In this document: piece after piece, positions 43,587 to 62,767 of the stretch
Position numbering within the stretch: position 1 is the first letter of the stretch
Layout: each line of letters begins with the position of its first letter
Program-made: the position numbers and the translations under genes
Notes under the pieces: generated by a model
Told to the model about the DNA's origin: nothing
Database searches by the model: none
What the model saw: only the letters and a program-made list of their open reading frames with translations
Assembly (NCBI GenBank): GCA_963666055.2
Contig: CAXWPH010000003.1
Coordinates: forward strand, 64,001-128,000
Reading direction: 5' to 3'
Source of the DNA: Acidobacteriota bacterium
GTDB taxonomy: Bacteria; Acidobacteriota; UBA890; WLXD01
Length of the DNA: 64,000 bases

Positions 43587-45096
43587 GTGCGCTACGTCAG
43601 CCTCGTCGATCTCGGCTCCAACAGCGCGCGCCTGGTTGTCTTCGAGCTTGATCCCGGCAAGGGGTTTCGCCTGGTTGACGAGATCCGTGAGGTCGTCCAG
43701 CTGGGCGCCGGGATCGCCCAAAACGGTGAGCTGAGCGACGGCGGCATCGCGCGGGCGCTTGCGGCGGTGCGGACTTTTTCCGACTTTGCCAAAGCTGCGG
43801 CGCTCCCGAACCCACGCGTCATGGCAACGTCTGCGGTGCGCAGCGCCGCTAACCGCGAAGCGCTCCTGCATCCGGTTTCGCGAGATCGGTATCGAGATCG
43901 AGGTGCTCAGCGGTGAGGTCGAAGCGGCGCAAGGGGTCTTGGCGGTGGCCAACAGCTTCGCGCTCAGCGACGCGTGGGTGATCGACCTCGGCGGCGGCAG
44001 CATGCAAGTTTCGCAGATGCGCGACCGGTCCTGCGTCTTTGGGAGCGCTTACCCTTTCGGTGCGATCCGAGCCTCGGAGCAGTTTCTGGGCGAATCGGAC
44101 CCGCCACGCCCGCAGGACATTGAGGCGCTCCGGGACGCCGTCGACCGCGATCTCGGCTCGTTGTTGTTGCGGATGCGCGCTGAACCCCTCCCGGTGATCG
44201 TCATGGGCGGCACGGTGCGCAACCTGGCGCGCGCCATTCAGCGCGCCGAGGGTTATCCGTGGCCGCAGATGCACGGCTATTGCCTCGATGGACGAGCCCT
44301 CGAGATGCTGGTCGCGCGGTTGCGGTCACTGTCGGTTGGCGAGCGTGCAGGGGTGGCCGGGATCAACCCGTACCGTGCTGATTCGGTGCTCGCCGGGGCG
44401 CTGGTGCTTCAGCACGTGTTGTCGCAGGCCGGGCTATCGAGCCTTACCGTCTCCGGCTATGGAATGCGCGAAGGGGCCCTGATGCAGGAGTTCCTTCCGG
44501 CCCCGCACCTGATCGAGGACGTGCGCGCCTTTCACGTAAGCAACCTAGCGTGGTGCTACCCACAGCCCGAGGACCACACCCGTCGGGTGATTGACCTGTC
44601 GCGTCAGCTGTTCGACGCTCTCACCCCGCTGCACGGGTATGGTGGTCCGGAAGCGGAGCTGTTGGCGGCCGCGACCGTGTTGCACGATGTCGGCAAGATC
44701 GTTGGCCACCGCGGCCACGCCAAACACGGAGAGTACCTGGTGGCGGGGGCGACCCTAGGGGGCTTTGATCATCGCGAGCAAGCCCTGCTGGCGTTGCTGG
44801 TGCGCTTTCATGATGCCGGGTACCCCAGCGGCTCGTCCTATCGATCGGTCCTGCGCGACGGCGACCATCGTGTGCTGGCGCAGCTAACCGTTTGCCTGCG
44901 ACTGGCGGAGTGCCTCGACCGCTCCCTAACCGGACGCGTCAAAGGGGTGGGCGCCGTGATCGACGACGAAGAAGTGACGCTCCAGCTGCGGGCTGACAGT
45001 GAGCCTTGGGTCGAGCTCTGGGAGACACGTAGGCAGGCGCCCCTGTTTCTTTCAGCGTACGAGCGCCGGTTGGCGCTCGTCGTGGCGCCCGCCTGA
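43587..45096 (+). CDS. ppx: Ppx/GppA exopolyphosphatase with an HD domain; +1 frameshift near 43873
   Basis: DLGSNSARL, ATSAVRSAAN, LSGEVEA, IDLGGGS, GMREG, LHDVG. Confidence 0.88.
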
Positions 45097-45618: not shown

Positions 45619-45786
45619 GTGCCGGTTCCTGCGTGCCGGTGTGATTTCGCTGGCAGCTCCCTATACTAAAGTCTCTTGCGCCGCCGACTTTGCTGCCCTG
45701 CGCGGCGCTCGCTTCCCACATCCGTGATCGCGGCGCCCTATGCAATCAGAACTGCCCGCCGGTGTCGATGCCGACCAGCTCCGGTC

Positions 45787-46550
45787 TGTACGCCAAGCTG
45801 TGCCTGGTGGTGCGCCGCGAGGAGACCGGCATCGTGCACTACCTGCATACGAGCACCGGCAACTACAACGCCACGACAGCGCGCCTGTACACCGACATCG
45901 GGCTGTTCACCGCCGACCCCAAGATCTGCGCCGAGGCCGCCCGTCTCTTCAACGCTCTCACGGGCTACGCTGGTGGCGTCGAGTATGAGGAGTTGCTGGT
46001 GGCTCCGGGCCGCATGCGCGAGCGCCTGCTGTCCCGCATCGAGCGGGAGATCGAGTGCCACCGTGGCGATGGCGCAGGCTATCTGGCGATGGAGATGAAC
46101 GCGCTGGTCGACGCGGAGTGCATCATGGCGCTGTATCGCGCTTCGCAGGCCGGCGTTCAGATCGATCTGCAAGTGCGCGGCATCTGCTGCCTACGACCCG
46201 GGGTGGAAGGCGTCAGCGAGAACATCCGCGTCAGGTCGATCGTAGGCCGTTTCTGGAGCACGCGCGCGTCTACTATTTCCGCAACGGCGGCGACGAGGAG
46301 CTGCTCATCGGCAGTGCCGACCTCATGCCGCGAAACTTCGATAACCGCGTCGAGGTGCTGCTGCCGGTCCGCGACGCGGAAATGCGCGCCGGAATTCGGC
46401 GACGGATCATGGCAACTCACATGGCGGACAACGTCAACGCACGGCATCTTGCTGCGGATGGCGAGTATGTTCCCTCGGACCCGGCGGGCGCCCGACAAGC
46501 TTGATTCGCACCGGTGGATGATCGAACACCGGGGCACCTGGATGAGCTAG
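45787..46550 (+). pseudogene. ppk1: C-terminal remnant of polyphosphate kinase 1
   Basis: AKLCLVVRRE, TGNYN..TARLYTD, MNALVD, RGICCLRPG, (F)LEHARVYYF, GSADLMPRN.D.RVE; N-terminal part absent; two frameshifts. Confidence 0.88.
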
Positions 46551-46873: not shown

Positions 46874-47407
46874 ATGCTTGCCGCACAGGCAATTTTCTAC
46901 TACATGGCCGCAGCCAGCGTGGCGAGCGCGCTTCTGGCGGTGACCCGAAAGAACCCGATTCACAGCATGCTGTGGGTGCTGGCGCTTTTCCTGCACGTGG
47001 CGGGCATCTTTCTGCTGCTCGATGCTGAATTCCTGGCGGCAGTACAGGTCATCGTGTACGCCGGCGCCATACTCATCTTCTACCTATTCGTCCTGATGCT
47101 GCTCGACCTGCCGGGTGAAGAGGCGCGCCCGCGGTTCGGAAGGCACTGGCCGTTTGCCGCCGCTGTCGGGATCTCCTTTGCAGCCCTGGCCTGGCTCGCC
47201 CGGGTCGAGACCTTCGACCGCGATGCGGCTGGGGCGGCAACCGTAACGCGCGTTGCCGCGGACGCACCGGTGGAGGGTGGCCTCGAGGACATCGGGATGG
47301 CGTTGTTCGGCCCGTTTGCGCTGCCCTTCGAGATAGCGGGCCTGGTGCTTCTGGCTGCCATCGTGGGGGCGGTCGTCCTCGCCCGGAAGAGGGACACACC
47401 GTCTTGA
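46874..47407 (+). CDS. nuoJ: NADH-quinone oxidoreductase subunit J
   Basis: KNPIHS, AEFLAAVQVIVYAGAI, LPFE. Confidence 0.95.
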   Translation: MLAAQAIFYYMAAASVASALLAVTRKNPIHSMLWVLALFLHVAGIFLLLDAEFLAAVQVIVYAGAILIFYLFVLMLLDLPGEEARPRFGRHWPFAAAVGISFAALAWLARVETFDRDAAGAATVTRVAADAPVEGGLEDIGMALFGPFALPFEIAGLVLLAAIVGAVVLARKRDTPS

Positions 47408-47709
47408 TTCCAGCTACCGGTGCGATTCTGGGGTTGAGCGCGGTTCTTTTCGGAATCGGCGCATTCGGCTTTCTTGCCCGCCGCAATATCATTCTCATGT
47501 TCGTCTCGGTCGAGGTCATGCTCAATGCCGTGAACCTCAGCCTGATCGGCTTTAGCCGCCACCTCGATGATCCGCGTGGCCAGGTGCTAGCCCTGTTCGT
47601 AATCGCGGTGGCGGCGGCGGAGGCGGGGGTTGGCCTGGGGCTGGTGATCGCGCTCAATCGGAACAAGCCCGGGGCAGGCGTAGCGGATCTAACCGAACTC
47701 AAGTGGTGA
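47404..47709 (+). CDS. nuoK: NADH-quinone oxidoreductase subunit K
   Basis: RRN, EVMLNAVNL, AAAEAGVGL. Confidence 0.95.
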   Translation: MIPATGAILGLSAVLFGIGAFGFLARRNIILMFVSVEVMLNAVNLSLIGFSRHLDDPRGQVLALFVIAVAAAEAGVGLGLVIALNRNKPGAGVADLTELKW

Positions 47710-47710
47710 C

Positions 47711-49168
47711 ATGCGGTTGCTCCCACTGATTGTCGTTCTTGTGCCAGCCGTCGGCGCACTCCTGATCGCGTGCACCGGCGAGCGTCGCGCCAACCTGCGA
47801 GAGTTCTGGTCGGTTGCGGCCGGCGTCGTCATGTTCACCCTGACAGCGCTGATGATTCCCGAGGTCCTGGCCGGCAGCTCGCCGGGAAGCGTGCTGTTCC
47901 ATGTTCTCCCGGGCGTCGATTTGGCTTTTCGGGTCGACGCCTTCGGCCTGCTCTTCGCTCTGGGCGCGTCGTTGCTCTGGACCCTCACGTCGTTTTACTC
48001 GATCGGCTACATGCGCACGCTCGAGGAACATGCCCAGACTCGCTACTTCTCCTGCTTCGCGCTGGCGCTGTCGACCACTGTTGCGGTGGCGTTTTCGGCC
48101 AACCTGTTTACGTTGTTCGTGTTCTACGAAGGATTGACCTTCGTTACCTACCCGCTGGTTGCGCACAAGGAGACCGACGAGGCGAGGGCCGGGGCGCGCA
48201 AGTACCTGATCTACCTTCTCGGCGCCGCGAAGCTTTGCCTGCTACCCGCCATCATCTTGATCTACAACGTTGCCGGCACCTTGGAGTTCCGCAGCGGTGG
48301 CATCGTGGGGGCGGCGCAGGCAGCGCAACAGCCCACCTTGCTGCTGGTGATCTTCGCGCTCTTCTTGTTCGGCTTCGCCAAGAACGCGCTCATGCCGCTG
48401 CATAGCTGGCTACCGGCCGCGATGGTGGCGCCGACCCCGGTGAGCGCGCTGCTGCACGCTGTGGCGGTGGTCAAGACAGGTGTCTTCTCCACACTCAGGG
48501 TCTTTCTCTTTGTCTTCGGGGCCGACGCCATGCGCGAGATCGGCGCCGATCAATTGGCCTTGGCGGTTGCCTCCGTGACCATCTTGATGGCGTCGCTGTT
48601 GGCGCTCGGTCAGGACAACCTCAAGGCCCGGCTGGCCTTCTCCACCGTCAGTCAGCTCTCCTACATCATTCTGGGCGCGGCGCTGTTGAACGCCAGCGGC
48701 GTGATGGGCGGGGTCGCCCACATCACCAACCACGCTGTTTCGAAGATCACGCTTTTCATGTGCGCCGGGTCGATCTACGTATCCACCCACAAGACCGAGA
48801 TCAGTCAGCTTTCGGGCATCGCCCGCCGCATGCCGTGGACCATGGCGGCTTTCGCTCTTGCCTCGCTGAGCATCGTGGGGATTCCGCTCACCAGCGGCTT
48901 CGTTTCCAAGTGGAACATTGCCCTCGGCACCGTCGACGGCCACAGCATCGTGCTGTTGGGGGTGCTTCTGCTGAGCTCGCTCCTGAGCGCTGCGTACCTT
49001 GGCCCGGTGGTCTACAAGGCGTACTTTGAACCGGAGGCGCCCGACGCTGAGGAGATCCGCGAGGTGCCGTGGATGGTGGCCCCCCTGGTGGTCAGCGCCG
49101 CCGCAAGCCTGCTCCTGGGTATCTTCCCCGGGTTCGTATTGGACTTGGCCGGAAGGGTTATGCCATGA
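47711..49168 (+). CDS. MrpD-like antiporter subunit
   Basis: YPLVAH, KNALMPLHSWLPAAMVAPTPVSALLHAVAVVKTG, RLAFSTVSQLSY, SGFVSKW. Confidence 0.9.
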   Translation: MRLLPLIVVLVPAVGALLIACTGERRANLREFWSVAAGVVMFTLTALMIPEVLAGSSPGSVLFHVLPGVDLAFRVDAFGLLFALGASLLWTLTSFYSIGYMRTLEEHAQTRYFSCFALALSTTVAVAFSANLFTLFVFYEGLTFVTYPLVAHKETDEARAGARKYLIYLLGAAKLCLLPAIILIYNVAGTLEFRSGGIVGAAQAAQQPTLLLVIFALFLFGFAKNALMPLHSWLPAAMVAPTPVSALLHAVAVVKTGVFSTLRVFLFVFGADAMREIGADQLALAVASVTILMASLLALGQDNLKARLAFSTVSQLSYIILGAALLNASGVMGGVAHITNHAVSKITLFMCAGSIYVSTHKTEISQLSGIARRMPWTMAAFALASLSIVGIPLTSGFVSKWNIALGTVDGHSIVLLGVLLLSSLLSAAYLGPVVYKAYFEPEAPDAEEIREVPWMVAPLVVSAAASLLLGIFPGFVLDLAGRVMP

Positions 49169-49428
49169 GCTTCTTGGAGAGGCACCTGGAGGATCCCGTA
49201 CGCTTGGCGCGCGTCAGACGGTTCTTCTACGCCGTGCTGGCGGTGATCGCGCTGGCCGAGATCGGGTTGCCGTTGGTGTACGGCTACGGCCACCCGCACT
49301 TTTCTTTCGAGCGCTTTCCGGCATGGGGCTCGATCTACGGGTTGGTCTCGTGCGTGGCCATCATCGTCGTCTCCAAGCTCATAGGAAAAGCCTGGCTGAT
49401 GCGCCCCGAGGGCCACTATGAAGACTGA
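49165..49428 (+). CDS. Small two-TM protein between the Mrp-like subunits
   Basis: ATGA overlap; HFSFERFPAW, G..SC, LMRPEGHYE. Confidence 0.8.
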   Translation: MSFLERHLEDPVRLARVRRFFYAVLAVIALAEIGLPLVYGYGHPHFSFERFPAWGSIYGLVSCVAIIVVSKLIGKAWLMRPEGHYED

Positions 49429-49434
49429 GTGCCG

Positions 49435-51198
49435 ATGAGTCTCGAGTGGGTACACCCCGGCCTTATCCTCATCCTAGGTGCGTGGGTGTTGCCTGTCCTC
49501 AAGGGCCGGATGAAGCGCGTCGCGATGCTGGCGCTGCCGGCGGCGGCGGTCATCGCCTGCTGGACTACGACACCAGGGATGTACGGCGTGGTGCGATTCC
49601 TGGGGCAGGAGCTCGTGTTCGGTCGCGCCGACAGCCTGAGCCTGGTGTTCTCCTACGTGTTCTCGATCATGGCCTTCGTGGGCATGGTGTACGCGCTTCA
49701 CGTCGACGACGACTCCCAACACGTCAGCGCCCTGACGTACGCTGGCGGCGCGCTCGGTGTGACCTTCGCCGGAGACTTCCTGTCGCTCTATATTTTCTGG
49801 GAGCTGATGGCAGTTTCCTCAGTGTTTCTGGTGTGGCTGCGTCGCGAGGAATCTGCGGTGGCGGCGGGGTTCCGCTACCTGCTGGTGCACGTGGTCGGAG
49901 GCCTGGTCCTGTTGGCGGGGATCGTGCTCCACTGGTCTGCTGTCGGGTCGCTCGCGTTCGGCGACCTGGGCGCCTTCTCGGGCGGCGCCGGCTGGACCCT
50001 GATCCTCATCGCTTTCCTGATCAACGCGGCGGTTCCGCCCTTCGGGGCATGGCTTCCCGATGCGTATCCCGAAGCCACGGTCACCGGTGGTGTCTTCATG
50101 ACCGCGTTCACCACCAAGTCCGCGGTGTATGCGCTGATTCGCGGCTTCGCCGGCACAGAGTTCCTGGTGTGGCTAGGAGCGGCGATGGCGGTTTATGGCG
50201 TGGTCTACGCGGTGCTGGAAAACGATGCGCGCCGGTTGCTCGCGTACCACATCATCAGTCAGGTGGGCTACATGGTGTGCGGCGTGGGTATCGGAACCGC
50301 GCTGGCCATCAACGGCGCTACCGCGCACGCGTTTGCGCACATTCTCTACAAGGCGCTGCTGTTCATGGGCGCAGGCGCCGTGCTACAGGTGACCGGCCGA
50401 CGCAAGCTCAGCGAGATGGGTGGGCTCTACAAGACCATGCCGATTACTCTCGGGCTGTACATGATCGGCGCGTTCGCGATCTCCGCGGTGCCCTTGTTCA
50501 GCGGTTTCGTGAGCAAGTCGATGGTGGTCTCGGCCGCCGGCGAGTCTCACATGGCGGCGATTTTCCTGATTCTGACTTTGGCTTCGGCCGGCACCTTCCT
50601 GCATACCGGCCTGAAGCTCCCCTACTACATGTTCTTCGCCAAGGACTCAGGCCTGCGCGCCCACGAGCCGCCCAGGAACATGCTCGTGGCGATGGGCCTG
50701 GCGGCGGTTGCGTGCGCCGTGATCGGGGTGTTTCCGCGGCTCCTGTATCAGTTCCTGCCCAATCCTGTGGAGTACCACGCATACACGTTGGCGCACGTCA
50801 CCAACACTCTCGGCATGCTCGGCTTCACCGCGCTGGGTTTCTTCCTGCTGCTCAAGCAACTCGACCCGGAGCGCAAGATCAGCCTCGACACCGACTGGTT
50901 CTACCGCCGTGGCTCTGCTGGGTTCCTGTCCCTGGTGAACAAGCCGTTGGCTCGCCTCGAGTACGGCTTCGTAGGCGAGATCTATGAGTTCGTGATCCAG
51001 CGGCCGGTGCTGAGCGTGGCCCGGGTGGTGCGTAGCTTCGACGGCATCGTCGTCGATTCCGGGATCGTCGGCGTGGGACGCTTCACGCAGTTGCTGAGCC
51101 GGATCGCTCAGTTTGGGGCGAGTGGACACGCCCAGCAATATGGGTTGCTCATGGCGGCCGGAATCCTGGCCGTGCTCGCCTGGATGCTCGTTCGATGA
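49435..51198 (+). CDS. Second Mrp-like antiporter subunit with a NuoL-like lateral helix and terminal TM
   Basis: FWELMA, WLPDAYPEAT, FTTKSAVY, LAYHIISQVG, FSGFVSKS, HTGLKLPY; C-terminal amphipathic helix. Confidence 0.9.
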   Translation: MSLEWVHPGLILILGAWVLPVLKGRMKRVAMLALPAAAVIACWTTTPGMYGVVRFLGQELVFGRADSLSLVFSYVFSIMAFVGMVYALHVDDDSQHVSALTYAGGALGVTFAGDFLSLYIFWELMAVSSVFLVWLRREESAVAAGFRYLLVHVVGGLVLLAGIVLHWSAVGSLAFGDLGAFSGGAGWTLILIAFLINAAVPPFGAWLPDAYPEATVTGGVFMTAFTTKSAVYALIRGFAGTEFLVWLGAAMAVYGVVYAVLENDARRLLAYHIISQVGYMVCGVGIGTALAINGATAHAFAHILYKALLFMGAGAVLQVTGRRKLSEMGGLYKTMPITLGLYMIGAFAISAVPLFSGFVSKSMVVSAAGESHMAAIFLILTLASAGTFLHTGLKLPYYMFFAKDSGLRAHEPPRNMLVAMGLAAVACAVIGVFPRLLYQFLPNPVEYHAYTLAHVTNTLGMLGFTALGFFLLLKQLDPERKISLDTDWFYRRGSAGFLSLVNKPLARLEYGFVGEIYEFVIQRPVLSVARVVRSFDGIVVDSGIVGVGRFTQLLSRIAQFGASGHAQQYGLLMAAGILAVLAWMLVR

Positions 51199-52664
51199 TG
51201 GGCTATCCTGTCTTATCGGTCACCACGTTCCTGCCCCTACTGGGCGCGGCGGTGATCTTGCTGATCGGCGGCGCGCGGCGGGCGCGCTGGATCGCACTGG
51301 CTACGACCTTGGCGACGCTGGCCGTTTCGTTGCCGCTATTTACCGGCTTCGAGAAGGGCTCGGGTGCTCTGCAGTTCGTCGAATCCGCCGATTGGATCCC
51401 GGCCTGGAACATCCAGTACAGCATGGGCGTAGACGGAATCAGCCTTCCGTTCATATTCCTCGCGGCGCTGTTGAGCGTGCTCTGCGTCGGCGTCTCGTGG
51501 ACGGCCGTGCAGACGAAGCCGCGCGAGTTCTACGCCGCGCTGCTGGTGGCCGAGACGGCGATGATCGGGCTGTTCGCCGCGTCGAACCTGTTTCTCTTCT
51601 TTGTTTTCTGGGAGCTCATCGTCATTCCCATCTTCCTGCTGGTCGGTGTTTGGGGCGGGCCAGGGCGCGTTTTCGCCGCCGTCAAGTTCCTCATCTTCAC
51701 CTTGGCCGGAAGCGTGTTGATGCTTGTGGGGATGATCGCCTTGCACCAGGCTTATGGCACCCTCGACTTCAGGGCGCTTGCTGTTGCCCGGCAGCAACTT
51801 GACCCGGCCACGCAGGGTTGGCTGTTCGCCGCGTTCCTCGCCGCGTTTGCCGTCAAGGTGCCGATGTTCCCAGTGCACACCTGGCTACCGAACGCCCACA
51901 CCGAGGCGCCCACGGCGGGGAGTGTGATTCTGGCTGGAATTCTCCTCAAGATGGGCGCCTACGGGTTCCTGCGGGTCTCGCTCCCCATTCTGCCCGAGGG
52001 CGTGCAGCTGTTCCTCACGCCCATGTTGGTGGTCTCTGCGCTGGCGATCGTCTACGGCGCCTACGTGACCTTGGTGCAGACCGACGTCAAACGGCTTATT
52101 GCCTACTCCAGCGTGAGCCACATGGGCTTCGTGACGCTGGGCATCTTCACGCTCGAGCAGAGCGGAGTCGAGGGTGCGATTCTCCAGATGATCAACCACG
52201 GGATCGTCTCGGCGGCGCTGTTCCTGTGCGTCGGGATGATCTACGAGCGTACCCATACGCGCGAGATCAGCGACTATGGCGGGCTCGCCAAGGTGGCACC
52301 TGTGTACAGCACGATGCTGGCGTTTTTCTGCCTGGCCGCCACCGGACTTCCGGGATTGAATTCCTTCGTCGGCGAGTTCCTGATCATCAGCGGTGCGTTC
52401 AAGACGCAGGTATGGCTTGGTGTTGCTGCCGTCTGGGGGGTCGCCCTGGGGACGGCCTACATGGTCTGGCTGTACTACCGGATGGTGATGGGGCAGACCA
52501 ACCCCGGGCTCGAGGGGCTCAAGCTCGAGCTCAATTCGCGTGAGCTCGTGACCCTGGCGCCGCTGGTCTTGCTCGCCTTGTGCCTAGGTCTCTATCCGGA
52601 GCTCGTCCTGTCCTATCTTCGTGTGCCTGTGGCGGAGCTGTTGGCCATCGGAGGGCTGCAATGA
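51195..52664 (+). CDS. nuoM: NADH-quinone oxidoreductase subunit M
   Basis: GVDGIS, FWE, KVPMFPVHTWLPNAHTEAP, LLKMG, AYSSVSHMG. Confidence 0.95.
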   Translation: MMGYPVLSVTTFLPLLGAAVILLIGGARRARWIALATTLATLAVSLPLFTGFEKGSGALQFVESADWIPAWNIQYSMGVDGISLPFIFLAALLSVLCVGVSWTAVQTKPREFYAALLVAETAMIGLFAASNLFLFFVFWELIVIPIFLLVGVWGGPGRVFAAVKFLIFTLAGSVLMLVGMIALHQAYGTLDFRALAVARQQLDPATQGWLFAAFLAAFAVKVPMFPVHTWLPNAHTEAPTAGSVILAGILLKMGAYGFLRVSLPILPEGVQLFLTPMLVVSALAIVYGAYVTLVQTDVKRLIAYSSVSHMGFVTLGIFTLEQSGVEGAILQMINHGIVSAALFLCVGMIYERTHTREISDYGGLAKVAPVYSTMLAFFCLAATGLPGLNSFVGEFLIISGAFKTQVWLGVAAVWGVALGTAYMVWLYYRMVMGQTNPGLEGLKLELNSRELVTLAPLVLLALCLGLYPELVLSYLRVPVAELLAIGGLQ

Positions 52665-54082
52665 AGGGTCCGAGCGCCGCCGATCTGGCCCTGCTGATTC
52701 CTGAGCTGATCTTCGTCGTCGCTGCGCTGGTGCTCATGCTCGCCGCGCGCCGGATCCGCAGGGGCCAGGTGGCCTCGGTCGGTACTGTGGTCGCTGCACT
52801 GGTTGCGCTCGTTGCGGCGAGTCAAACGCTGTCCTGGGGGCCGATCAACGGATTCTCGGGCATGCTTGTGCTCGACGGCTACTCGCAGTTCTTCAAGATT
52901 CTGATCGTCGCGACGCTCGTGTTGACCACCCTCCTCTCGGTGGGTCGCCGTGCTGGCGACGGCGTCCCGCGCGGCGACTATCACGTGCTGTTGTTGCTCG
53001 CCGCCACGGGAATGATGATCTCGGTTTCAGCCGCAGATCTCATACCGCTCTACCTGAGCTTGGAGCTCATGACGATTTGCTCGTACATCCTCGTCGGCAT
53101 CCGGGTAGAGAGGCCGACGTCGAACGAGGCGGCGATCAAGTACTTCCTCCTCAGCTCCTTCTCTTCCGCGTTTTTCCTTTTTGGTATCAGCCTGATTTAT
53201 GGGCTCACCGGTACGACAGCCTATGACGGCATCGCCTCGGCGTTGCACTCGCGAGGCCTGGTTAGCCAACCGTTTCTGCTGATCGCCATCGGGCTGATTG
53301 TGGCCGGGCTTGCCTTCAAGATCGCGGCCGTACCTTTTCACGCCTGGGCTCCAGATGCCTACCAGGGGGCGAGTGCGCCGGTCGCGGCGTTCTTGGCGGC
53401 CGGCTCCAAAGCGGCCGGGCTGGCGGCGCTGGGACGCCTCTTCCTGATCGCGTTCGGTACCGAGGTGGGCGTGCTCTCGACGATCGCGGTGGGACTGGCC
53501 GGCCTGTCCTTGCTCGTGGGCAGCATCTTGGCGCTGTCCCAGACCAACATGAAACGGCTGCTGGCCTATTCGTCCATTGCCCACGCCGGGTATGCCCTCC
53601 TCGGTCTGATCGCCGGGACCCCCGCGGGCCTCTCCGCCACCATGACCTATGTGTTCTTCTATGTGTTCATGACGCTAGGGGCCTTCAGCGTAGTCATCGC
53701 ACTGGGCGAGCGCGGCGAGAGGCTGGATGGTTTTGCTGGCCTGGCGACGCAGCGACCGGGCACGGCGGCGCTCATGCTCTTGTTCATGCTGTCGCTGACC
53801 GGGTTCCCGCCGACGGCCGGATTCGTGGCCAAGTTCGGTGTCATCACCAGTGCAGTGCAGGCGGGCCAGATCGCGCTGGCGGTTCTTGCGGTGGCCTGCA
53901 GTGTGATCACAGCGTTCGTATACATGCGCGTAGCCGTTCTGATGTACATGAACAACACCATCGCACCGGCCCCGGCGCGTTTCCCGCTGGCGGTGACGGC
54001 GGCGCTCGCCGTGGCGGCTCTGGTCACCCTGGTGGGTGGGATCTTCCCGGCCAGCGTGATGTCGTGGACAGTAACGCCATGA
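52661..54082 (+). CDS. nuoN: NADH-quinone oxidoreductase subunit N
   Basis: EAAIKYF, FKIAAVPFHAWAPDAYQG, KRLLAYSSIAHAGY. Confidence 0.95.
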   Translation: MKGPSAADLALLIPELIFVVAALVLMLAARRIRRGQVASVGTVVAALVALVAASQTLSWGPINGFSGMLVLDGYSQFFKILIVATLVLTTLLSVGRRAGDGVPRGDYHVLLLLAATGMMISVSAADLIPLYLSLELMTICSYILVGIRVERPTSNEAAIKYFLLSSFSSAFFLFGISLIYGLTGTTAYDGIASALHSRGLVSQPFLLIAIGLIVAGLAFKIAAVPFHAWAPDAYQGASAPVAAFLAAGSKAAGLAALGRLFLIAFGTEVGVLSTIAVGLAGLSLLVGSILALSQTNMKRLLAYSSIAHAGYALLGLIAGTPAGLSATMTYVFFYVFMTLGAFSVVIALGERGERLDGFAGLATQRPGTAALMLLFMLSLTGFPPTAGFVAKFGVITSAVQAGQIALAVLAVACSVITAFVYMRVAVLMYMNNTIAPAPARFPLAVTAALAVAALVTLVGGIFPASVMSWTVTP

Positions 54083-54571: not shown

Positions 54572-55150
54572 ATGGAGAACGCTTTACTCGAATCGGTCGC
54601 CAACCGATTCCCGGACGCCGGCCTCGCCTCATACACGTACCGGGGCGACGCCACGGTCGTCTTGCGCCGCGAGAGCCTGCTCGAGGTGGCCCGTTTCCTC
54701 AAGGAGGACTCGGCGCTACAGATGAACTTCCTGGTGGACGTGACCGCGGTGGACTATTCCGCTTTCGGGAAGGGGCCGGCGCCAGCCTTTTTTGCATCCT
54801 CAGGCGTGTCGGTGAGGCCGTCCCCGCAGATTCCAGAATCAGAATCGTGGCCGGGCCCCCCGGACGACGCGCGTTTTGCGGTCGTATACCACTTCTACTC
54901 CATGACCCATAAGCATCGGCTGCGGCTGGTGGTGCCGACGCCGGAGAGCACGCCGGAGGTAGATTCGCTGACCTCGCTGTGGCCGGGAGCCAATTGGCTC
55001 GAGCGCGAGGTATGGGACATGTTCGGGATTCGTTTCGCCGGGCATCCGGATCTGCGGCGGATCCTCATGTACGAGGAGTTCGAAGGTCACGCGTTGCGCA
55101 AGGACTATCCCGTTAACAAGCGCCAGCCTCTGATCGGGCCGCACAACTAG
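54572..55150 (+). CDS. nuoC: NADH-quinone oxidoreductase subunit C, with an insertion
   Basis: DVTAVDY, ANWLEREVWDMFGI.F.GHPDLRRIL, LRKDYP. Confidence 0.95.
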   Translation: MENALLESVANRFPDAGLASYTYRGDATVVLRRESLLEVARFLKEDSALQMNFLVDVTAVDYSAFGKGPAPAFFASSGVSVRPSPQIPESESWPGPPDDARFAVVYHFYSMTHKHRLRLVVPTPESTPEVDSLTSLWPGANWLEREVWDMFGIRFAGHPDLRRILMYEEFEGHALRKDYPVNKRQPLIGPHN

Positions 55151-55172: not shown

Positions 55173-56554
55173 ATGGCTATGCAAAAGAGCCCGATGGTCG
55201 AGACCAGCTCGATCTCTGAGCCTGACGCCGCCGGACTCGAGACGCGGGACATGATGCTCAACATCGGCCCCGCCCACCCCGCCATGCACGGCATCATCCG
55301 CATCATCGCCAAGCTCGAGGGCGAGCAGATCGAGGCTGCCGACGTCGAAATCGGCTACCTGCACCGCGCTTTCGAGAAGATGTCGGAGACGGTCGACTAT
55401 AACGGCGTCGTTCCGTATACCGACCGGCTCAACTATGTCTCGCCGCTGATCAACAACATGGGCTATTGCATGGCGGTGGAAAAACTGCTCGGGATCTCGG
55501 TGCCGGAGCGCTGCCACTACGTGCGCGTCATCATGTCCGAGATCTCGAGGGTGTCGGACCACCTCACGTGTGTGGGTGCGACCGCCATGGAGTTGGGCGC
55601 GTTCACCGTCTTTCTTTACATGATCAAGGCGCGTGAGTATCTGTGGGAGCTCGTGGAGAAGGTCACCGGAGCGCGGCTGACCGTTACCTACTGTCGCGTC
55701 GGGGGAGTGAAGGCGGACCTGCCGGAAGGTTTCGCGGAAGCCTGCAGCGAGGCGTTCAAGGAGACCCGCAAGGTCCTGGAGGAGTCGAGCGCGCTCCTTA
55801 CCCGCAATCGGATCTTCGCGGACCGCATGAATGATACGGGCGCGATTTCGGCGGAAGACGCCATCTCTTTCGGGATCACCGGCCCGTTCCTGCGCGCTAC
55901 CGGCGCTACGTACGATGTCCGCAAGGACTGCCCGTACGCCGTCTACGACCAGATTCCCTTCGAAGTGCCGGTCGGGACTCGCGGCGACAACATGGATCGC
56001 TATCTGGTGCGCATGGAGGAGATGGAACAGTCCATGCGTATCGTGGAGACGGCACTAGAGCAGATACCGGGCGGTCCAGTGCTGGTCAATCCCGAGACCG
56101 GGCGCCCGATTCCGGCCGCGGAGATGGTGGACCTCGCCAAGGTGGGCAACATCGACGCGATCTCGGGCGGATGTGCCGTGGTCGGCCCAACCCTCGAGGG
56201 ATCGGGTCGTCTGTACCACCCCTCGATCGCCACGGACGAGAAGCGCGCGGTCTTTCCTGCCAAGGAAGACACCTACGGCAACATCGAAGGGCTGATGCGG
56301 CAGTTCAAGCTGGTCATGCATGGCCATGGGGTGCGCCCCCCCAACGGAGAGGCGTACTTTCCGGTGGAGGGCGCCAACGGAGAGCTGGGGTTTTACGTGG
56401 TGAGCGACGGCGCCGGTAATGCCTACCGGGTTCGGGTGCGGCCGCCTTGCTTTGCCATCATGTCGGCGCTCTCGATGCTGCTAGAGGGCGAGATGATCGC
56501 CGACATGGTTCCCACATTCGGCTCGGTCAACATGATCGGCGGGGAGCTCGATCG

Positions 56555-56558
<4 letters not shown>
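55173..56558 (+). CDS. nuoD: NADH-quinone oxidoreductase subunit D, with an insertion
   Basis: NIGPAHPAMHG, GYLHR.FEK, DRLNY, GELDR. Confidence 0.97.
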
Positions 56559-58349
<1,791 letters not shown>

Positions 58350-58357
<8 letters not shown>

Positions 58358-59954
58358 GCTCACCATCGACGACCGTGAGATCGAGGTCGCCGAGGGAACC
58401 ATGGTCATCCAGGCCGCGGAGCAGCTCGGGGTCTTGGTGCCGCGCTACTGCTACCACCCGGGCCTCTCGATCGCGGGCAACTGCCGTATCTGTCTGGTGG
58501 ATGTCGAAAACAACCCCAAGCTACAGATCGCATGCAACTTGCCCGCCACCGAGGGGATGGTCGTGCATACCAAGAACGACCGAGCAGAAGAGGGGCGACG
58601 CTCGGTTCTGGAGTTTCTGTTGGCCAACCATCCGCTCGATTGCCCAGTCTGCGATCAATCGGGCGAGTGCGACCTGCAGAACTTCTACATGGACTTCGGG
58701 CTCTACAGCCCGCGGTTCCATGAGCAGAAGGTCAAGAAGCAGAAGGCAGTGCAGCTCGGTCAGCATGTCATGCTCGACCAAGAGCGCTGCATCCTGTGCT
58801 CCCGATGCGTGCGTTTCACCGACGAGATCACCGAGACCGGAGAGTTTGGCATCTTCAACCGCGGCGACAGCTCGGAGCTGGGTATCTATCCCGGCTCCAC
58901 GCTCGACAACGCGTACTCGGCAAACGTCGTCGACATCTGCCCCGTGGGCGCTCTCACCGAGGCTGATTTTCGTTTCAAGGCCCGTGTCTGGTATCTCTCG
59001 AGCGCTCCCACTGTCTGCAACGGCTGCAGCCGCGGCTGCAACATCGACATGCATTTCGTCCTCGACCGGCCGCATTTGAACGACGGGGCCCGCATGGCAC
59101 GCGTCAAGCCGCGCTACAACGCCGGTGTCAACGAGTGGTGGCTGTGCGATGAAGGACGGTACGGCCTCGGCTGGCTGGATCATGAGCGTGCCGACGTGGT
59201 GCGCGGGCCAGCCGGTGACGCGACTTGGGAGGAGGCGCTGACAGCGATCTCGTTGCAGGTTGGCGAAGGAGCCCGCGTCGGTGTGATCGCCTCCACGCAG
59301 CTCACCAACGAGGAGCTCTTCCTGATCCGGGAGGTTTTCCAGGGGGCGCGAATTAGCGCCAACGTGCCCGAGCAGCCCGGTTCTTCGGACGACTTTCTCA
59401 TCATGGCCGACAAGAGCCCCAACATGCGTGGGGCGACCTTGCTCGGGCTCGCCGGCCCAGAGGCGTATGACGCCGGCCAGATTTTGGACGAGGCGCTGGC
59501 CGGGGATCTCGACGCGCTGTGGGTCTTCGGGCATGACCTGGTGGATCTGTTCGGTGAGGAGAAGGTTCGTGAGCTACCGCAGCGGGTGGGGTTGTTGGTG
59601 TTCTCCGGGACGAACGAGAACTCCACCGCGTCGCTGGCGCATTGGGCCCTGCCGACTGCCGGCTACGTGGAAAAGGATGGGACCTTCGTTAACTGCGATG
59701 GTCGCGTGCAGCGCGTCGGTCGGGTGATGCCACCCTACGGTCGGTCGCAGGAAGATTGGCGCATGCTCTTGAAGCTGGCCGAGATGCTTGGCCGACCGCT
59801 CGATTGGGCGAAGCCGGAGGAGATCTTCGAGGCGCTGGCAGCAGCGGAGGCACCCTTTGCAGCGTTGAGCTACGAGGCAATCGGAAAAGACGGAGCCGCC
59901 ATCACGCCGGCCACGCCCACGCCGGGGGCACCAGCAGAGGCAGTCGCACCGTGA
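58350..59954 (+). CDS. nuoG: NADH-quinone oxidoreductase subunit G (short form)
   Basis: CYHPGL..AGNCRIC, HPLDCPVCDQSGEC, CILCSRC, CPVGAL, CNGCSRGC...C. Confidence 0.93.
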
Positions 59955-61045
59955 TCGAAGCACTCCTCATCAAGCTCGCGCTGGCCGGGCTCGTGCTCTT
60001 TGCGGTGGTCAACTTCGCGGGGTTGCACACCTGGGTGGAGCGGAAACAGTCGGCCCTGATCCAGGACCGGATTGGAGCTAACCGCGCCCCCATCTTCGGC
60101 TTTCGCGCGCTGGGCCTATTTCACGGCATCGCCGATGCAATCAAAATGTTCACCAAGGAGGACATTGTTCCAGCGGGCGCCAACAAGACGCTTCATGCGC
60201 TAGCGCCGTTTTTCTCGGTGTTCTTCGCGCTGGTGGCGTTCGCGGCGATCCCCTTCGGTGACCGGCTTGTATGGGGCGATCGGGTCATCGAGCTCCAGGT
60301 AGCCAATATCGACGCGGCGCTGCTCTACGTGTTCGCGATGCTGTCGATGGGGGTCTACGGGGTGATCCTTGCCGGCTTCGCCTCCCGCAACAACTATGCC
60401 ATCATGGGTGCATTGCGCGCCACCGCACAGTTGATCTCCTACGAGATCGCTCTGGGAGTGGCCATTCTTGGCGTGATCATGGTCTACGGAACCATGAATC
60501 TGTCTGAGCTGGTCCGCGCGCAGGGGCATATGATTGGTGGTTGGATTCCGCTCTGGGGCATCGTCGTCCAGCCGGTCGCCTTCTTCATCTTCGTGACCGC
60601 GGCGCTGGCGGAGACCAAGCGGCTGCCCTTTGACCTACCGGAAGGGGAGTCGGAGATCATCGGCTACTTCGTCGAGTACAGCGGCATGAAGTTCGGGATG
60701 TTCTTTCTCACGGATTTTCTCGAAACCATCATGGTGTCCTGCCTGGCTACGACGCTCTTCTTCGGTGGGTGGCAGGTGCCCTTCCTCACCCCCGAAGGAT
60801 TCCTGCTGCCGTGGGGCGCGGAGATTCCCGTATCGAACCTGGTCTATGTCCTGCTCGGCGTGGCGAGCTTCACGGTCAAGGTCATCGGCTTTTCCTGGCT
60901 GTTCATGCAAATACGCTGGACCTTGCCGCGCTTCCGATACGATCAGCTCATGTCGCTGGGCTGGAAGGGGCTATTCCCGGTGGCGGTGGTCAACGTCGTG
61001 GTGACGGCCCTGGTGCTGATGTTCTTCACCGAGGGGGGGCCGTGA
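59951..61045 (+). CDS. nuoH: NADH-quinone oxidoreductase subunit H
   Basis: ERK..A.IQDRIGANR, KMFTKED, AQLISYE, PFDLPEGESE, PRFRYDQL. Confidence 0.96.
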   Translation: MIEALLIKLALAGLVLFAVVNFAGLHTWVERKQSALIQDRIGANRAPIFGFRALGLFHGIADAIKMFTKEDIVPAGANKTLHALAPFFSVFFALVAFAAIPFGDRLVWGDRVIELQVANIDAALLYVFAMLSMGVYGVILAGFASRNNYAIMGALRATAQLISYEIALGVAILGVIMVYGTMNLSELVRAQGHMIGGWIPLWGIVVQPVAFFIFVTAALAETKRLPFDLPEGESEIIGYFVEYSGMKFGMFFLTDFLETIMVSCLATTLFFGGWQVPFLTPEGFLLPWGAEIPVSNLVYVLLGVASFTVKVIGFSWLFMQIRWTLPRFRYDQLMSLGWKGLFPVAVVNVVVTALVLMFFTEGGP

Positions 61046-61653: not shown

Positions 61654-61714
61654 ACGACCGATTGAGCACCTTCCGCCGCGGTCGACCAGTGGAGCGTTGC
61701 AGCGCGGAGGACCC

Positions 61715-62767
61715 GTGTTGCAGTTAGGTCGCTGCGTCATCGGCGTCGCCGCGTTGATCGCAGTCGTGCCGCTCCTTGGGGCCGGCTGCGCGGTCGCCCC
61801 GTCGCGGCGAGTCGGCGTGCTGCTTACGGGGCCCACGATGGGTACCCGCTACAACGTTCGTGTAGACGACGCGCACGCGCCCGCCGCAGAGGCGACTATC
61901 GCCGCTCTCATCACGGCGACGCTGGATCGGATCGATCGCAAGATGTCGACGTTTCGGTCGGACTCCGAGATCTCCGAGCTCAACCAGGCGCCGGCAAACC
62001 AACCAGTGCGGCTCTCGATGGAAACCGTTGGCGTGCTTTCGGCTGCCATCGATCTGGCGGCTGACACCGGCGGCGCGTTCGATGTCACCGCTGGACCATT
62101 GGTCAACGCCTGGGGGTTCGGGCCGTCGGGTGACGCCAACGGGCCGCCGTCGGAGCGTGAGCTTGCCGACGCCCTGCGTCACGTGGGGTCGGACAAGATC
62201 ACATTGGACACCGTAGCCGGTACGGCGACCAAGCTCGACGCCGACGTATACATCGACCTTTCGGGAATCGCCAAGGGCTACGCAGTCGACGCGGTCGACG
62301 CGGCGCTGGCGGCGGCAGGCTGGGAGCGCACCATGGTCGACGTCGGCGGCGAAGTGCGGACGCGCGGGCTCACCGCCTTCGGTCGCCGTTGGCGCGTCGC
62401 GATCGAGCAGCCCGACGGCGGTGTCCCAGCGTCTCCGCTGCTCGTGTCGCTCGTTGACGGCGCGCTGGCGACATCGGGCAACTACCGCAACGCTTACTTT
62501 CGCGGCGACACCTTGGTAGGCCATACGATCGATCCGCGAACCGGTCGCCCCATCGAGCACAACGGAGTCTCGGTTTCGGTCATGGCGGCCGATTGCATGA
62601 CAGCGGACGCTCTGGCAACCGCGCTGATGGTGATGGGCCCCGAAGAGGGGCTTGCCTGGGCGACTGATCGCGACGTCGCTGCCGTGTTCATGGCGCGCGA
62701 TAACGACACCCTCGTGCGGCGTGCGACCCCGGCGTACGAGCGCCAGGTAGGAGCGCGGTTACAATGA
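61715..62767 (+). CDS. apbE: FAD:protein FMN transferase (lipoprotein)
   Basis: Lipobox GAGC; TMGT, GAFDVTAGPL, DLSGIAKGYAVD, ATSGNY, HTIDPRTG, ADALAT. Confidence 0.93.
   Translation: MLQLGRCVIGVAALIAVVPLLGAGCAVAPSRRVGVLLTGPTMGTRYNVRVDDAHAPAAEATIAALITATLDRIDRKMSTFRSDSEISELNQAPANQPVRLSMETVGVLSAAIDLAADTGGAFDVTAGPLVNAWGFGPSGDANGPPSERELADALRHVGSDKITLDTVAGTATKLDADVYIDLSGIAKGYAVDAVDAALAAAGWERTMVDVGGEVRTRGLTAFGRRWRVAIEQPDGGVPASPLLVSLVDGALATSGNYRNAYFRGDTLVGHTIDPRTGRPIEHNGVSVSVMAADCMTADALATALMVMGPEEGLAWATDRDVAAVFMARDNDTLVRRATPAYERQVGARLQ

What the first reader, a model, noticed from the sequence alone, without database searches (positions are those of the whole stretch)
46874..54082. Complex I membrane arm with four antiporter-like subunits, Mrp-type subunits replacing NuoL, and a lengthened lateral helix
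Seen: nuoJ-K-MrpD-like-small TM protein-Mrp/NuoL-like-nuoM-nuoN, all tightly packed, with no canonical nuoL. The second Mrp-like subunit has a NuoL-like tail in which the helix-start motif appears twice (DWFY and GEIY, 27 residues apart), so the helix is about 27 aa longer. Known: four-pump (2M-type) complex I variants carry amphipathic-helix insertions that span the extra pump. Inference: a real four-pump complex built from Na+/H+ antiporter parts, possibly with higher ion stoichiometry, Na+ coupling or reverse electron transport.
Basis: partly seen in the sequence, partly recalled or inferred. Interest (0 to 1): 0.8.

Follow-up and report, generated by a model that had tools for sequence, protein, structure and literature searches.

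The report
Green complex I, nuoB moved away
This operon encodes an already published variant of respiratory complex I ("green complex I") in which two Mrp-derived pump-like subunits and a small membrane protein replace NuoL, likely giving a four-module proton-pumping arm held by a strap helix about 26 residues longer than usual, and in this genome the essential nuoB gene is missing from the operon and likely supplied from another contig.

Summary
In detail: nuoJ-K, an MrpD-like gene, an 87-aa membrane protein, a second Mrp-like gene with a lateral helix, nuoM and nuoN, with no nuoL; nuoA-C-D-EF-G-H-I follow. This is the published 'green complex I': same order as Sinorhizobium meliloti pSymA apart from nuoB and nuoH/I, 44-58% identical pump subunits, with the Mrp-derived pair and NuoM in the same clades. 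It recurs in 80 fetched loci, mostly Acidobacteriota and Planctomycetota, and the scan has reported it on other DNA several times. The helix spans 78 residues (standard NuoL 48-54, rhizobial green 77, Mrp paralogue 58); it is an Mrp start joined to a whole NuoL-type tail. Caveats: equally long helices occur in NuoL of single-nuoM operons, including this genome's second complex I; the distal subunit has Asn for the TM7 Lys; the Mrp sodium-path subunits are absent; the quinone is probably menaquinone. So five protons or Na+ coupling are not supported. Local novelty: nuoB is cleanly deleted from the operon (55 of 55 relatives keep it) and an intact stand-alone copy lies on contig C11. New member of a known kind; interest 0.2.

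The parts
46874..47407 (+). nuoJ
   Evidence: PF00499
47404..47709 (+). nuoK, both conserved Glu present
   Evidence: PF00420, NF004320 over cut-off
47711..49168 (+). X1 = first MrpD-like subunit (485 aa, no lateral helix); TM5 E140, TM7 K224, TM8 H249+K255, K345, TM12 K400; extra TM6 Lys174
   Evidence: NF006236; residue map on E. coli NuoL/M/N; sister to the D2 subunit of three-D Mrp operons
48230..48232 (+). X1 Lys174 (TM6; column of E. coli NuoL D178, next to R175): found in complex I context, not in Mrp context
49165..49428 (+). 87-aa two-TM accessory protein, no Pfam/NCBIfam family; also present between D2 and D3 of the Mrp operon
   Evidence: in 79 of 80 loci; dN/dS 0.31-0.37
49435..51198 (+). 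X2 = second MrpD-like subunit (NF009310), 16 predicted TM elements like NuoL/MrpA; E123, N197 (TM7 Lys lost), K228, H302, K306, K361
50023..50025 (+). X2 Asn197 in place of the TM7 Lys (E. coli NuoL K229)
50893..51126 (+). lateral helix of X2, 78 residues: Mrp-type DWFYRR start (27 aa) + NuoL-type helix from GEIY (50974)
51195..52664 (+). nuoM (E140, K221, K252, TM12 E394)
   Evidence: TIGR01972
52661..54082 (+). nuoN (E135, K220, K250, K391)
   Evidence: TIGR01770
54216..54569 (+). nuoA
   Evidence: PF00507
54566..54574 (+). nuoA-nuoC junction: nuoB precisely absent; the short TGAC-x-ATG sequence stands at both ends of nuoB in relatives
   Evidence: bridged by 865-base contigs without differences in runs X1, X2, X3
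54572..55150 (+). nuoC
   Evidence: PF00329, TIGR01961
55173..56558 (+). nuoD (461 aa; 404 aa in S. meliloti)
   Evidence: NF004739
56555..58357 (+). fused nuoE-nuoF; the only TIGR01959 match in the genome
   Evidence: fused in 50 loci, separate in 6
58350..59954 (+). short nuoG (534 aa; Fe-S motifs intact)
59951..61045 (+). nuoH
   Evidence: PF00146
61042..61653 (+). nuoI, two 4Fe-4S motifs

Best explanation
The operon encodes a green complex I, an NADH:quinone oxidoreductase whose genes put two Mrp-derived antiporter-like subunits (X1, X2) and an 87-aa membrane protein in place of nuoL, and which likely assembles a four-module membrane arm that would move protons, not sodium, as it likely passes electrons from NADH to menaquinone. 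Shown: gene content and order, family assignment, helix length, residue pattern, nuoB deletion and the intact stand-alone nuoB on C11. Inferred: electrons run FMN (NuoEF) - Fe-S chain (G, I) - N2 (NuoB made from C11) - quinone; the arm is ordered N-M-X1-X2, with X1 against NuoM (its TM6 Lys taking the place of the NuoL basic residue that faces the NuoM TM12 Glu) and X2 at the tip; the X2 tail, an Mrp helix start joined to a whole NuoL helix and last TM, is about 26 residues (about 40 A of helix) longer so that it can reach over three neighbours instead of two; the small protein packs on X2. Stoichiometry: I put 4 or fewer H+/2e- at about 0.55 and 5 H+ at about 0.35, because X2 lacks the TM7 Lys and NADH to menaquinone yields only about 490 meV per electron pair (recalled textbook potentials), which caps a 5-proton pump near 100 mV at standard poise. 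Direction: forward NADH oxidation about 0.6, since it holds the genome's only NuoF.
For: Order J-K-D-small-D-M-N-A-(B)-C-D-E-F-G matches S. meliloti pSymA and Ensifer plasmid loci; identities to S. meliloti X1 55%, small 41%, X2 58%, M 52%, N 44%. PMC9040806 (section 10 read) defines green complex I as two MrpD-like subunits replacing NuoL. Tree of 63 rows (quick mode, SH-aLRT only): green X1, green X2 each one side of a branch with the rhizobial copies (94), green NuoM 98; X1 joins Mrp D2 (100), X2 joins the D3 family (100), both outside NuoL (100). In 80 loci, 79 show X1+small+X2, 79 X2 followed by nuoM, 74 all of X1, small, X2, M, N (misses sit at contig or locus ends), none holds nuoL or MrpB/C/E/G. 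Helix span 76-78 in 80 of 81 green X2 (one unmeasured); a profile of 21 short NuoL tails scores X2 39.8 bits (81 green tails 25.8-69.1), 10 Mrp D3 tails at most 5.6, 200 shuffles at most 11.5. X1 TM6 Lys in 75 of 81 X1 frames (5 partial frames and 1 motif miss) and in none of 14 Mrp-type D2 segments printed. All genes under purifying selection against two same-genus genomes, dN/dS 0.04-0.37; cofactor motifs intact. C11 nuoB is 80-92% identical to the operon nuoB of close relatives (the end of that table was cut), has all ligands, dN/dS 0.07-0.11. Complex prediction, small protein against X2 + X1(161-485): weak support, 0.60 against best control 0.00; that mark was reached by 116 of 157 solved and 2 of 215 mismatched pairs, but at 0.60 or under by only 18 solved and both mismatches; runs agree in at least 91% of contacts, partner pLDDT 70-71; replacing X2 gave 0.00. 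Genome has MqnA/MqnD, no UbiB over cut-off, a haem-copper oxidase subunit I-like gene, no RuBisCO, no NqrA (95.7% complete).
Against: No structure or biochemistry of any green complex was found; nearest solved chains are 20-24% identical. A long helix does not prove a fourth module: spans of 77-79 occur in this genome's own C4 NuoL and in 10 of 10 fetched long-NuoL loci, each showing a single nuoM, as also reported for Manganitrophaceae Complex_I_1/2 (PMC9040806). The genome holds a canonical nuoL (C4) and a complete three-D Mrp operon (C15) whose subunits could in principle mix with these. The distal third of the helix has pLDDT under 50. The order N-M-X1-X2 rests on one residue correlation in a single clade, not on independent origins. 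TM7 Asn is a family trait, also seen in Mrp-context D3 (L206-L208) and in 92 of 128 representatives, so it may be compatible with normal transport. Expression of the operon and of C11 nuoB was not shown.
Confidence: 0.72

Rival explanations
1. Full five-proton machine: all four modules pump, and with menaquinone the enzyme mainly runs backwards, using the proton gradient to reduce NAD+ from menaquinol.
For: Four modules with TM5 Glu, TM8 Lys and TM12 Lys/Glu all present; 5 ions proposed for four-subunit variants in PMC9040806; reverse electron transport proposed for 2M complexes (PMC6606698 passage); menaquinone pathway present; TM7 Asn tolerated in Mrp-context relatives.
Against: X2 lacks the TM7 Lys, whose E. 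coli equivalent K229 is described as severely affecting complex I (PMC4938563 passage) and as part of an ion pair (PMC9271201 passage); it is the only NuoF-bearing complex in an organism with no RuBisCO found; other fixation pathways were not searched; models in which only the distal subunit releases protons do not tie stoichiometry to module number (PMC9271201 passage).
Confidence: 0.3
2. The Mrp-like pair and small protein work apart from complex I (joining the C15 Mrp subunits), while the operon's complex I borrows the canonical NuoL from C4.
For: Canonical nuoL on C4 and Mrp E-F-G-B-B-C-D1-D2-small-D3 on C15 exist in this genome; X1 and X2 are 52% and 50% identical to D2 and D3.
Against: The C15 operon has its own D2, small and D3; X2 ends in a NuoL-type tail that D3 lacks; the cassette is translationally coupled between nuoK and nuoM in 66 of 80 loci showing J through N; G007 and G039 have the green cassette as their only NF009310 match.
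Confidence: 0.07
3. Sodium-coupled complex I: the Mrp-derived subunits bring Na+ transport.
Against: The Mrp structure places the Na+ path in MrpE/F/G/C and the C-terminal part of MrpA, not in the antiporter-like domains (PMC7419157 passages); none of these is in the operon.
Confidence: 0.1
4. The operon is decaying in this strain (nuoB lost), so no working enzyme is made.
For: nuoB deleted; neighbouring ppx and ppk genes are broken; two further nuoB copies on C8 and C12 are frameshifted.
Against: All 14 operon frames are open with intact motifs; an intact green-type nuoB is kept on C11, 94% identical at DNA level to a stand-alone copy in G004 with dN/dS 0.11. Pairwise dN/dS cannot see very recent relaxation.
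Confidence: 0.1

Closest known systems
[quoted passage not shown]
   Same: Gene order from nuoJ to nuoG, two MrpD-like subunits plus small ORF instead of nuoL, helix span 77 vs 78, TM7 Asn, X1 TM6 Lys, same clades.
   Different: Here nuoB is off-operon, nuoE-F are fused, NuoG is 534 instead of 853 aa, NuoD is longer, nuoH-I are collinear (inverted in rhizobia), and the host is an acidobacterium with a menaquinone pathway.
2M complex I (Chadwick et al. 2018, ISME J 12:2668; not held, seen through PMC9040806, PMC6606698, PMC7117926 passages)
   Same: Four antiporter-like subunits and a lateral helix longer by about 26 residues.
   Different: 2M has a true NuoL and two NuoM; here there is one NuoM, no NuoL, and the helix sits on an NF009310 subunit.
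Complex_I_3 of Ca. Manganitrophaceae (PMC9040806)
   Same: Same two MrpD-like subunits.
   Different: Five pump-like subunits and a further 26-aa helix insertion relative to rhizobia; neither is present here (78 vs 77).
Three-D Mrp antiporter operon (E-F-G-B-B-C-D1-D2-small-D3), e.g. G000:C15
   Same: Source family of X1 (D2), small protein and X2 body (D3).
   Different: Has the small Na+-path subunits, no redox arm, a 58-residue helix span without NuoL-type tail, and TM7 Lys in the C15-type clade.

Membership tests
Green complex I | [quoted passage not shown] | tested here: met
   definition in PMC9040806
Green complex I | Rearranged order starting at nuoJ-K, membrane genes before nuoA-G, as in rhizobial plasmids | tested here: met
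   (differences: nuoB off-operon, nuoH-I not inverted)
Green complex I | Subunits share ancestry with the rhizobial copies | tested here: met
   X1 94, X2 94, M 98 SH-aLRT; NuoN not resolved as one green clade
Green complex I | All 14 core functions encoded, including NuoB and NuoEFG | tested here: met
   13 in the operon counting X1/X2 for L, nuoB on C11
Green complex I | Expressed and assembled as one enzyme | not testable with these tools
   no RNA holder listed; no structure of the family found
2M complex I | Second nuoM | tested here: not met
   one nuoM in the operon
2M complex I | NuoL with a helix insertion of about 26 aa | tested here: not met
   no NuoL; the length is matched (78) but on an NF009310 subunit
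Manganitrophaceae Complex_I_3 | Five pump-like subunits and 26 aa more helix than rhizobial MrpD2 | tested here: not met
   four subunits; span 78 vs 77
Mrp Na+/H+ antiporter | MrpB, C, E, F, G with the antiporter-like subunits | tested here: not met
   absent from the operon; MrpB/C/E/G queries hit 0 of 80 loci; they lie on C15 with their own D subunits
Mrp Na+/H+ antiporter | Na+ transport | not testable with these tools
   needs transport assay

The most novel reading that the evidence does not exclude
Green complex I is a four-module arm with rewired charges: the Mrp-derived inner subunit gained a TM6 lysine to couple to NuoM, the tip subunit works without the canonical Glu-Lys pair, and with menaquinone the enzyme acts as a five-proton reversible machine assembled from two loci (nuoB in trans). 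It would be a natural test of whether proton number scales with module number in complex I, an open dispute.
Probability: 0.2. Interest if true: 0.65.

Novelty: new member of a known kind. Interest (0 to 1): 0.2.

Why it matters
The design is in print and common, so this locus by itself is ordinary. It matters as one more carrier of an enzyme type for which I found no structure or measured stoichiometry: a four-module complex I would test directly whether each antiporter-like subunit pumps a proton. The details added here sharpen that test (chimeric tail, X1 TM6 Lys, X2 TM7 Asn, small partner) and warn that a long lateral helix alone is not a marker of a fourth pump in Acidobacteriota.

Tried and rejected
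Tandem duplication of the helix start: rejected, the second half matches NuoL tails and the first matches the Mrp D3 start. TM7 Asn as a complex I-specific change: rejected, it is in Mrp-context D3 of G215, G188, G168 and in 92 of 128 representatives, many with short tails. nuoB loss as assembly error: rejected, junction bridged in three runs of two studies, one of which may be the source sample; X5's contig had under 31 letters on one side and was not counted. Simple translocation of nuoB: replaced by duplicate-then-lose, since G004 has both an operon copy and a stand-alone copy 94% identical to C11. Long-helix NuoL as a sign of hidden 2M operons: not supported in 10 loci, five of which I picked because their match ended early and three of which showed no nuoN in the stretch. 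Small protein: no Pfam or NCBIfam family, Atlas hits only unnamed clusters. Expression: no RNA holder listed, no evidence either way. Chadwick 2018 could not be read. Literature searches for pSymA+nuo+mrpD (0 papers), Acidobacteriota+complex I+MrpD+nuoL (1 paper, no green complex passage), 'green complex I' and helix insertion found no structure, stoichiometry or acidobacterial description; the library lacks most subscription papers, and Fig. S2 of PMC9040806 was not seen. Rows dropped: L173 (unpublished genome G051) from the NuoL count; 22 of 150 representatives outside 500-760 aa.
Full report
Observation. The window holds, on the + strand and tightly packed, nuoJ, nuoK, X1 (485 aa), an 87-aa two-TM gene, X2 (587 aa), nuoM and nuoN (46874-54082), then nuoA, C, D, fused EF, a short G, H and I to 61653. 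Four genes carry PF00361. X1 is closest to NF006236 and X2 passes NF009310; neither reaches the NuoL cut-off. DWFY and GEIY are 27 residues apart.

Identity. The X2 protein finds 101 plasmid records, 99 of them rhizobial at 60-80% identity over the body. The S. meliloti pSymA and Ensifer loci read J-K-D-hypothetical-D-M-N-A-B-C-D-E-F-G, then inverted I-H. Yu et al. [quoted passage not shown] In a 63-row tree (quick search, SH-aLRT, long-branch warnings at the deep joins) the window's X1, X2 and NuoM fall with the rhizobial copies; X1 is sister to the D2 and X2 belongs with the D3 subunits of three-D Mrp operons, both outside NuoL. Of 236 relatives found among GTDB genomes the best 80 were kept: 53 Acidobacteriota, 20 Planctomycetota, 5 Nitrospirota, 1 Myxococcota, 1 unassigned; 79 show X1+small+X2, 74 show all five membrane genes, the misses lying at contig or locus ends; none has nuoL. 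The host is an acidobacterium by its nearest relative (L001, 90%). The scan had already filed this design as green complex I on other genomes; I had reached that reading before the look-up.

The helix. Measured from the start Asp to the Gly before the last TM, the span is 78 here, 76-78 in 80 of 81 green X2 (rhizobia 77), 48-54 in 24 of 30 measurable NuoL, and 58 in the genome's own Mrp D3. A profile of 21 short NuoL tails aligns end to end from GEIY at 39.8 bits; Mrp D3 tails score at most 5.6 and shuffles at most 11.5. The DWFYRR start is the Mrp D3 start. So the tail is best read as a chimera (inference): Mrp start plus a whole NuoL helix and TM16. AlphaFold gives a NuoL/MrpA-like fold with helix 487-562 broken at 543-546 (top fold match MrpA 7qru_A). 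Against reading too much into it: 6 of the 30 NuoL have spans of 77-78, among them this genome's C4 NuoL, and 10 of 10 long-NuoL loci fetched show one nuoM. In four relatives this second complex is A-B-C-D-H-I-J-K-L-M-N without EFG. Yu et al. report the same mismatch in Manganitrophaceae.

Charged residues. Mapped on E. coli NuoL/M/N taken from NC_000913.3: X1, M and N keep TM5 Glu, TM7 Lys, TM8 Lys and TM12 Lys/Glu. X2 keeps E123, K228, H302, K306, K361 but has Asn197 for the TM7 Lys, in 82 of 82 green loci; Asn is also common outside complex I context. X1 has a TM6 Lys (174) in 75 of 81 frames, the six others being five partial frames and one motif miss, and Mrp-type D2 segments lack it (0 of 14 printed, 13 genomes). 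Since NuoL has a basic TM6 residue on the side facing NuoM (recalled from structures), this suggests X1 sits against NuoM; it is one clade, so one event.

nuoB. All 55 loci that show nuoA and nuoC have nuoB, as do same-genus G002, G003, G004. Here nuoA ends three bases before nuoC, at a TGAC-x-ATG repeat present at both ends of nuoB in relatives; 865-base contigs from three runs bridge the junction without differences. A green-type nuoB (91% to L001) lies alone at G000:C11:183436-182915 with all ligands, both flanks bridged in the same runs. G004 has a stand-alone copy 94% identical to it as well as the operon copy (85% to it), so the spare arose first and the operon copy was then lost (inference). 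dN/dS is 0.04-0.37 for all operon genes and 0.07-0.11 for the C11 gene.

Mechanism. The operon has the genome's only NuoF, the genome has futalosine-pathway genes and a haem-copper oxidase-like gene and no UbiB, RuBisCO or NqrA match over cut-off. I infer an NADH:menaquinone oxidoreductase with arm N-M-X1-X2, strapped by the long helix, with the small protein on X2 (weak support: 0.60 vs best control 0.00, with the calibration limits given above). Na+ coupling is unlikely because the Mrp Na+ path runs through MrpE/F/G/C and the MrpA C-terminus (PMC7419157 passages), none encoded here. Five protons is possible but doubtful: the distal ion pair is incomplete and, with recalled midpoint potentials (-320 and about -75 mV), five protons could be pumped forward only below about 100 mV at standard poise. 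If all four modules pump, reverse operation becomes the better reading.

Verdict. Real, conserved and under selection, but a new member of a published kind that this scan has met repeatedly. What I did not find in the papers searched is the chimeric origin of the tail, the X1 TM6 Lys correlation and the off-operon nuoB; the two primary papers and Fig. S2 of PMC9040806 were not seen and may cover part of this. Interest 0.2; novel case probability 0.2, interest 0.65.

Noticed in passing
G000:C4:28579-35927 and C9:78420-81207 (L106, L107): Second complex I; in four relatives it is an 11-subunit form without nuoEFG. Its NuoL has a 26-residue repeat in the lateral helix (span 77) although the operon has one nuoM; the same holds in 10 other acidobacterial loci.
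   Followed up: partly
G000:C15:1949689-1957340 (L105): Mrp operon with three antiporter-like subunits and the same small 2-TM gene: E-F-G-B-B-C-D1-D2-small-D3; conserved in the family and order.
   Followed up: partly
G000:C11:182915-183436; C12:1854-2340; C8:53474-53960: Stand-alone intact green-type nuoB, plus frameshifted copies next to a formate dehydrogenase and an Mrp/ApbC-like ATPase gene (family names by my reading of the sequence) in a block duplicated on C8 and C12 beside an insertion sequence.
   Followed up: partly
window 43587-45096 and 45690-46550: Exopolyphosphatase-like gene split over two frames and a polyphosphate kinase-like remnant (C-terminal part only, frameshifted) just upstream of nuoJ; no other copies found by tblastn. 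Names are my reading of the translation.
   Followed up: partly
window 55173-59954: NuoD about 57 aa longer than in S. meliloti, NuoE-F fused (50 loci), NuoG cut to 534 aa (539-549 in five close relatives) with its Fe-S motifs kept.
   Followed up: partly
G000:C12:3578-3725 and many other places: A repeat of about 150 bases with well over 50 copies at 85-98% identity across nearly all contigs.
   Followed up: no
window 61697-62767: ApbE-like flavin transferase directly after nuoI; no NqrA in the genome, so its target is unknown.
   Followed up: no
L048, L067, L068, L078: Nitrospirota carry the same X1-small-X2 cassette in the standard nuo order (H-I-J-K before, full-length G where seen), so the cassette and the rearranged order are separable.
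   Followed up: no
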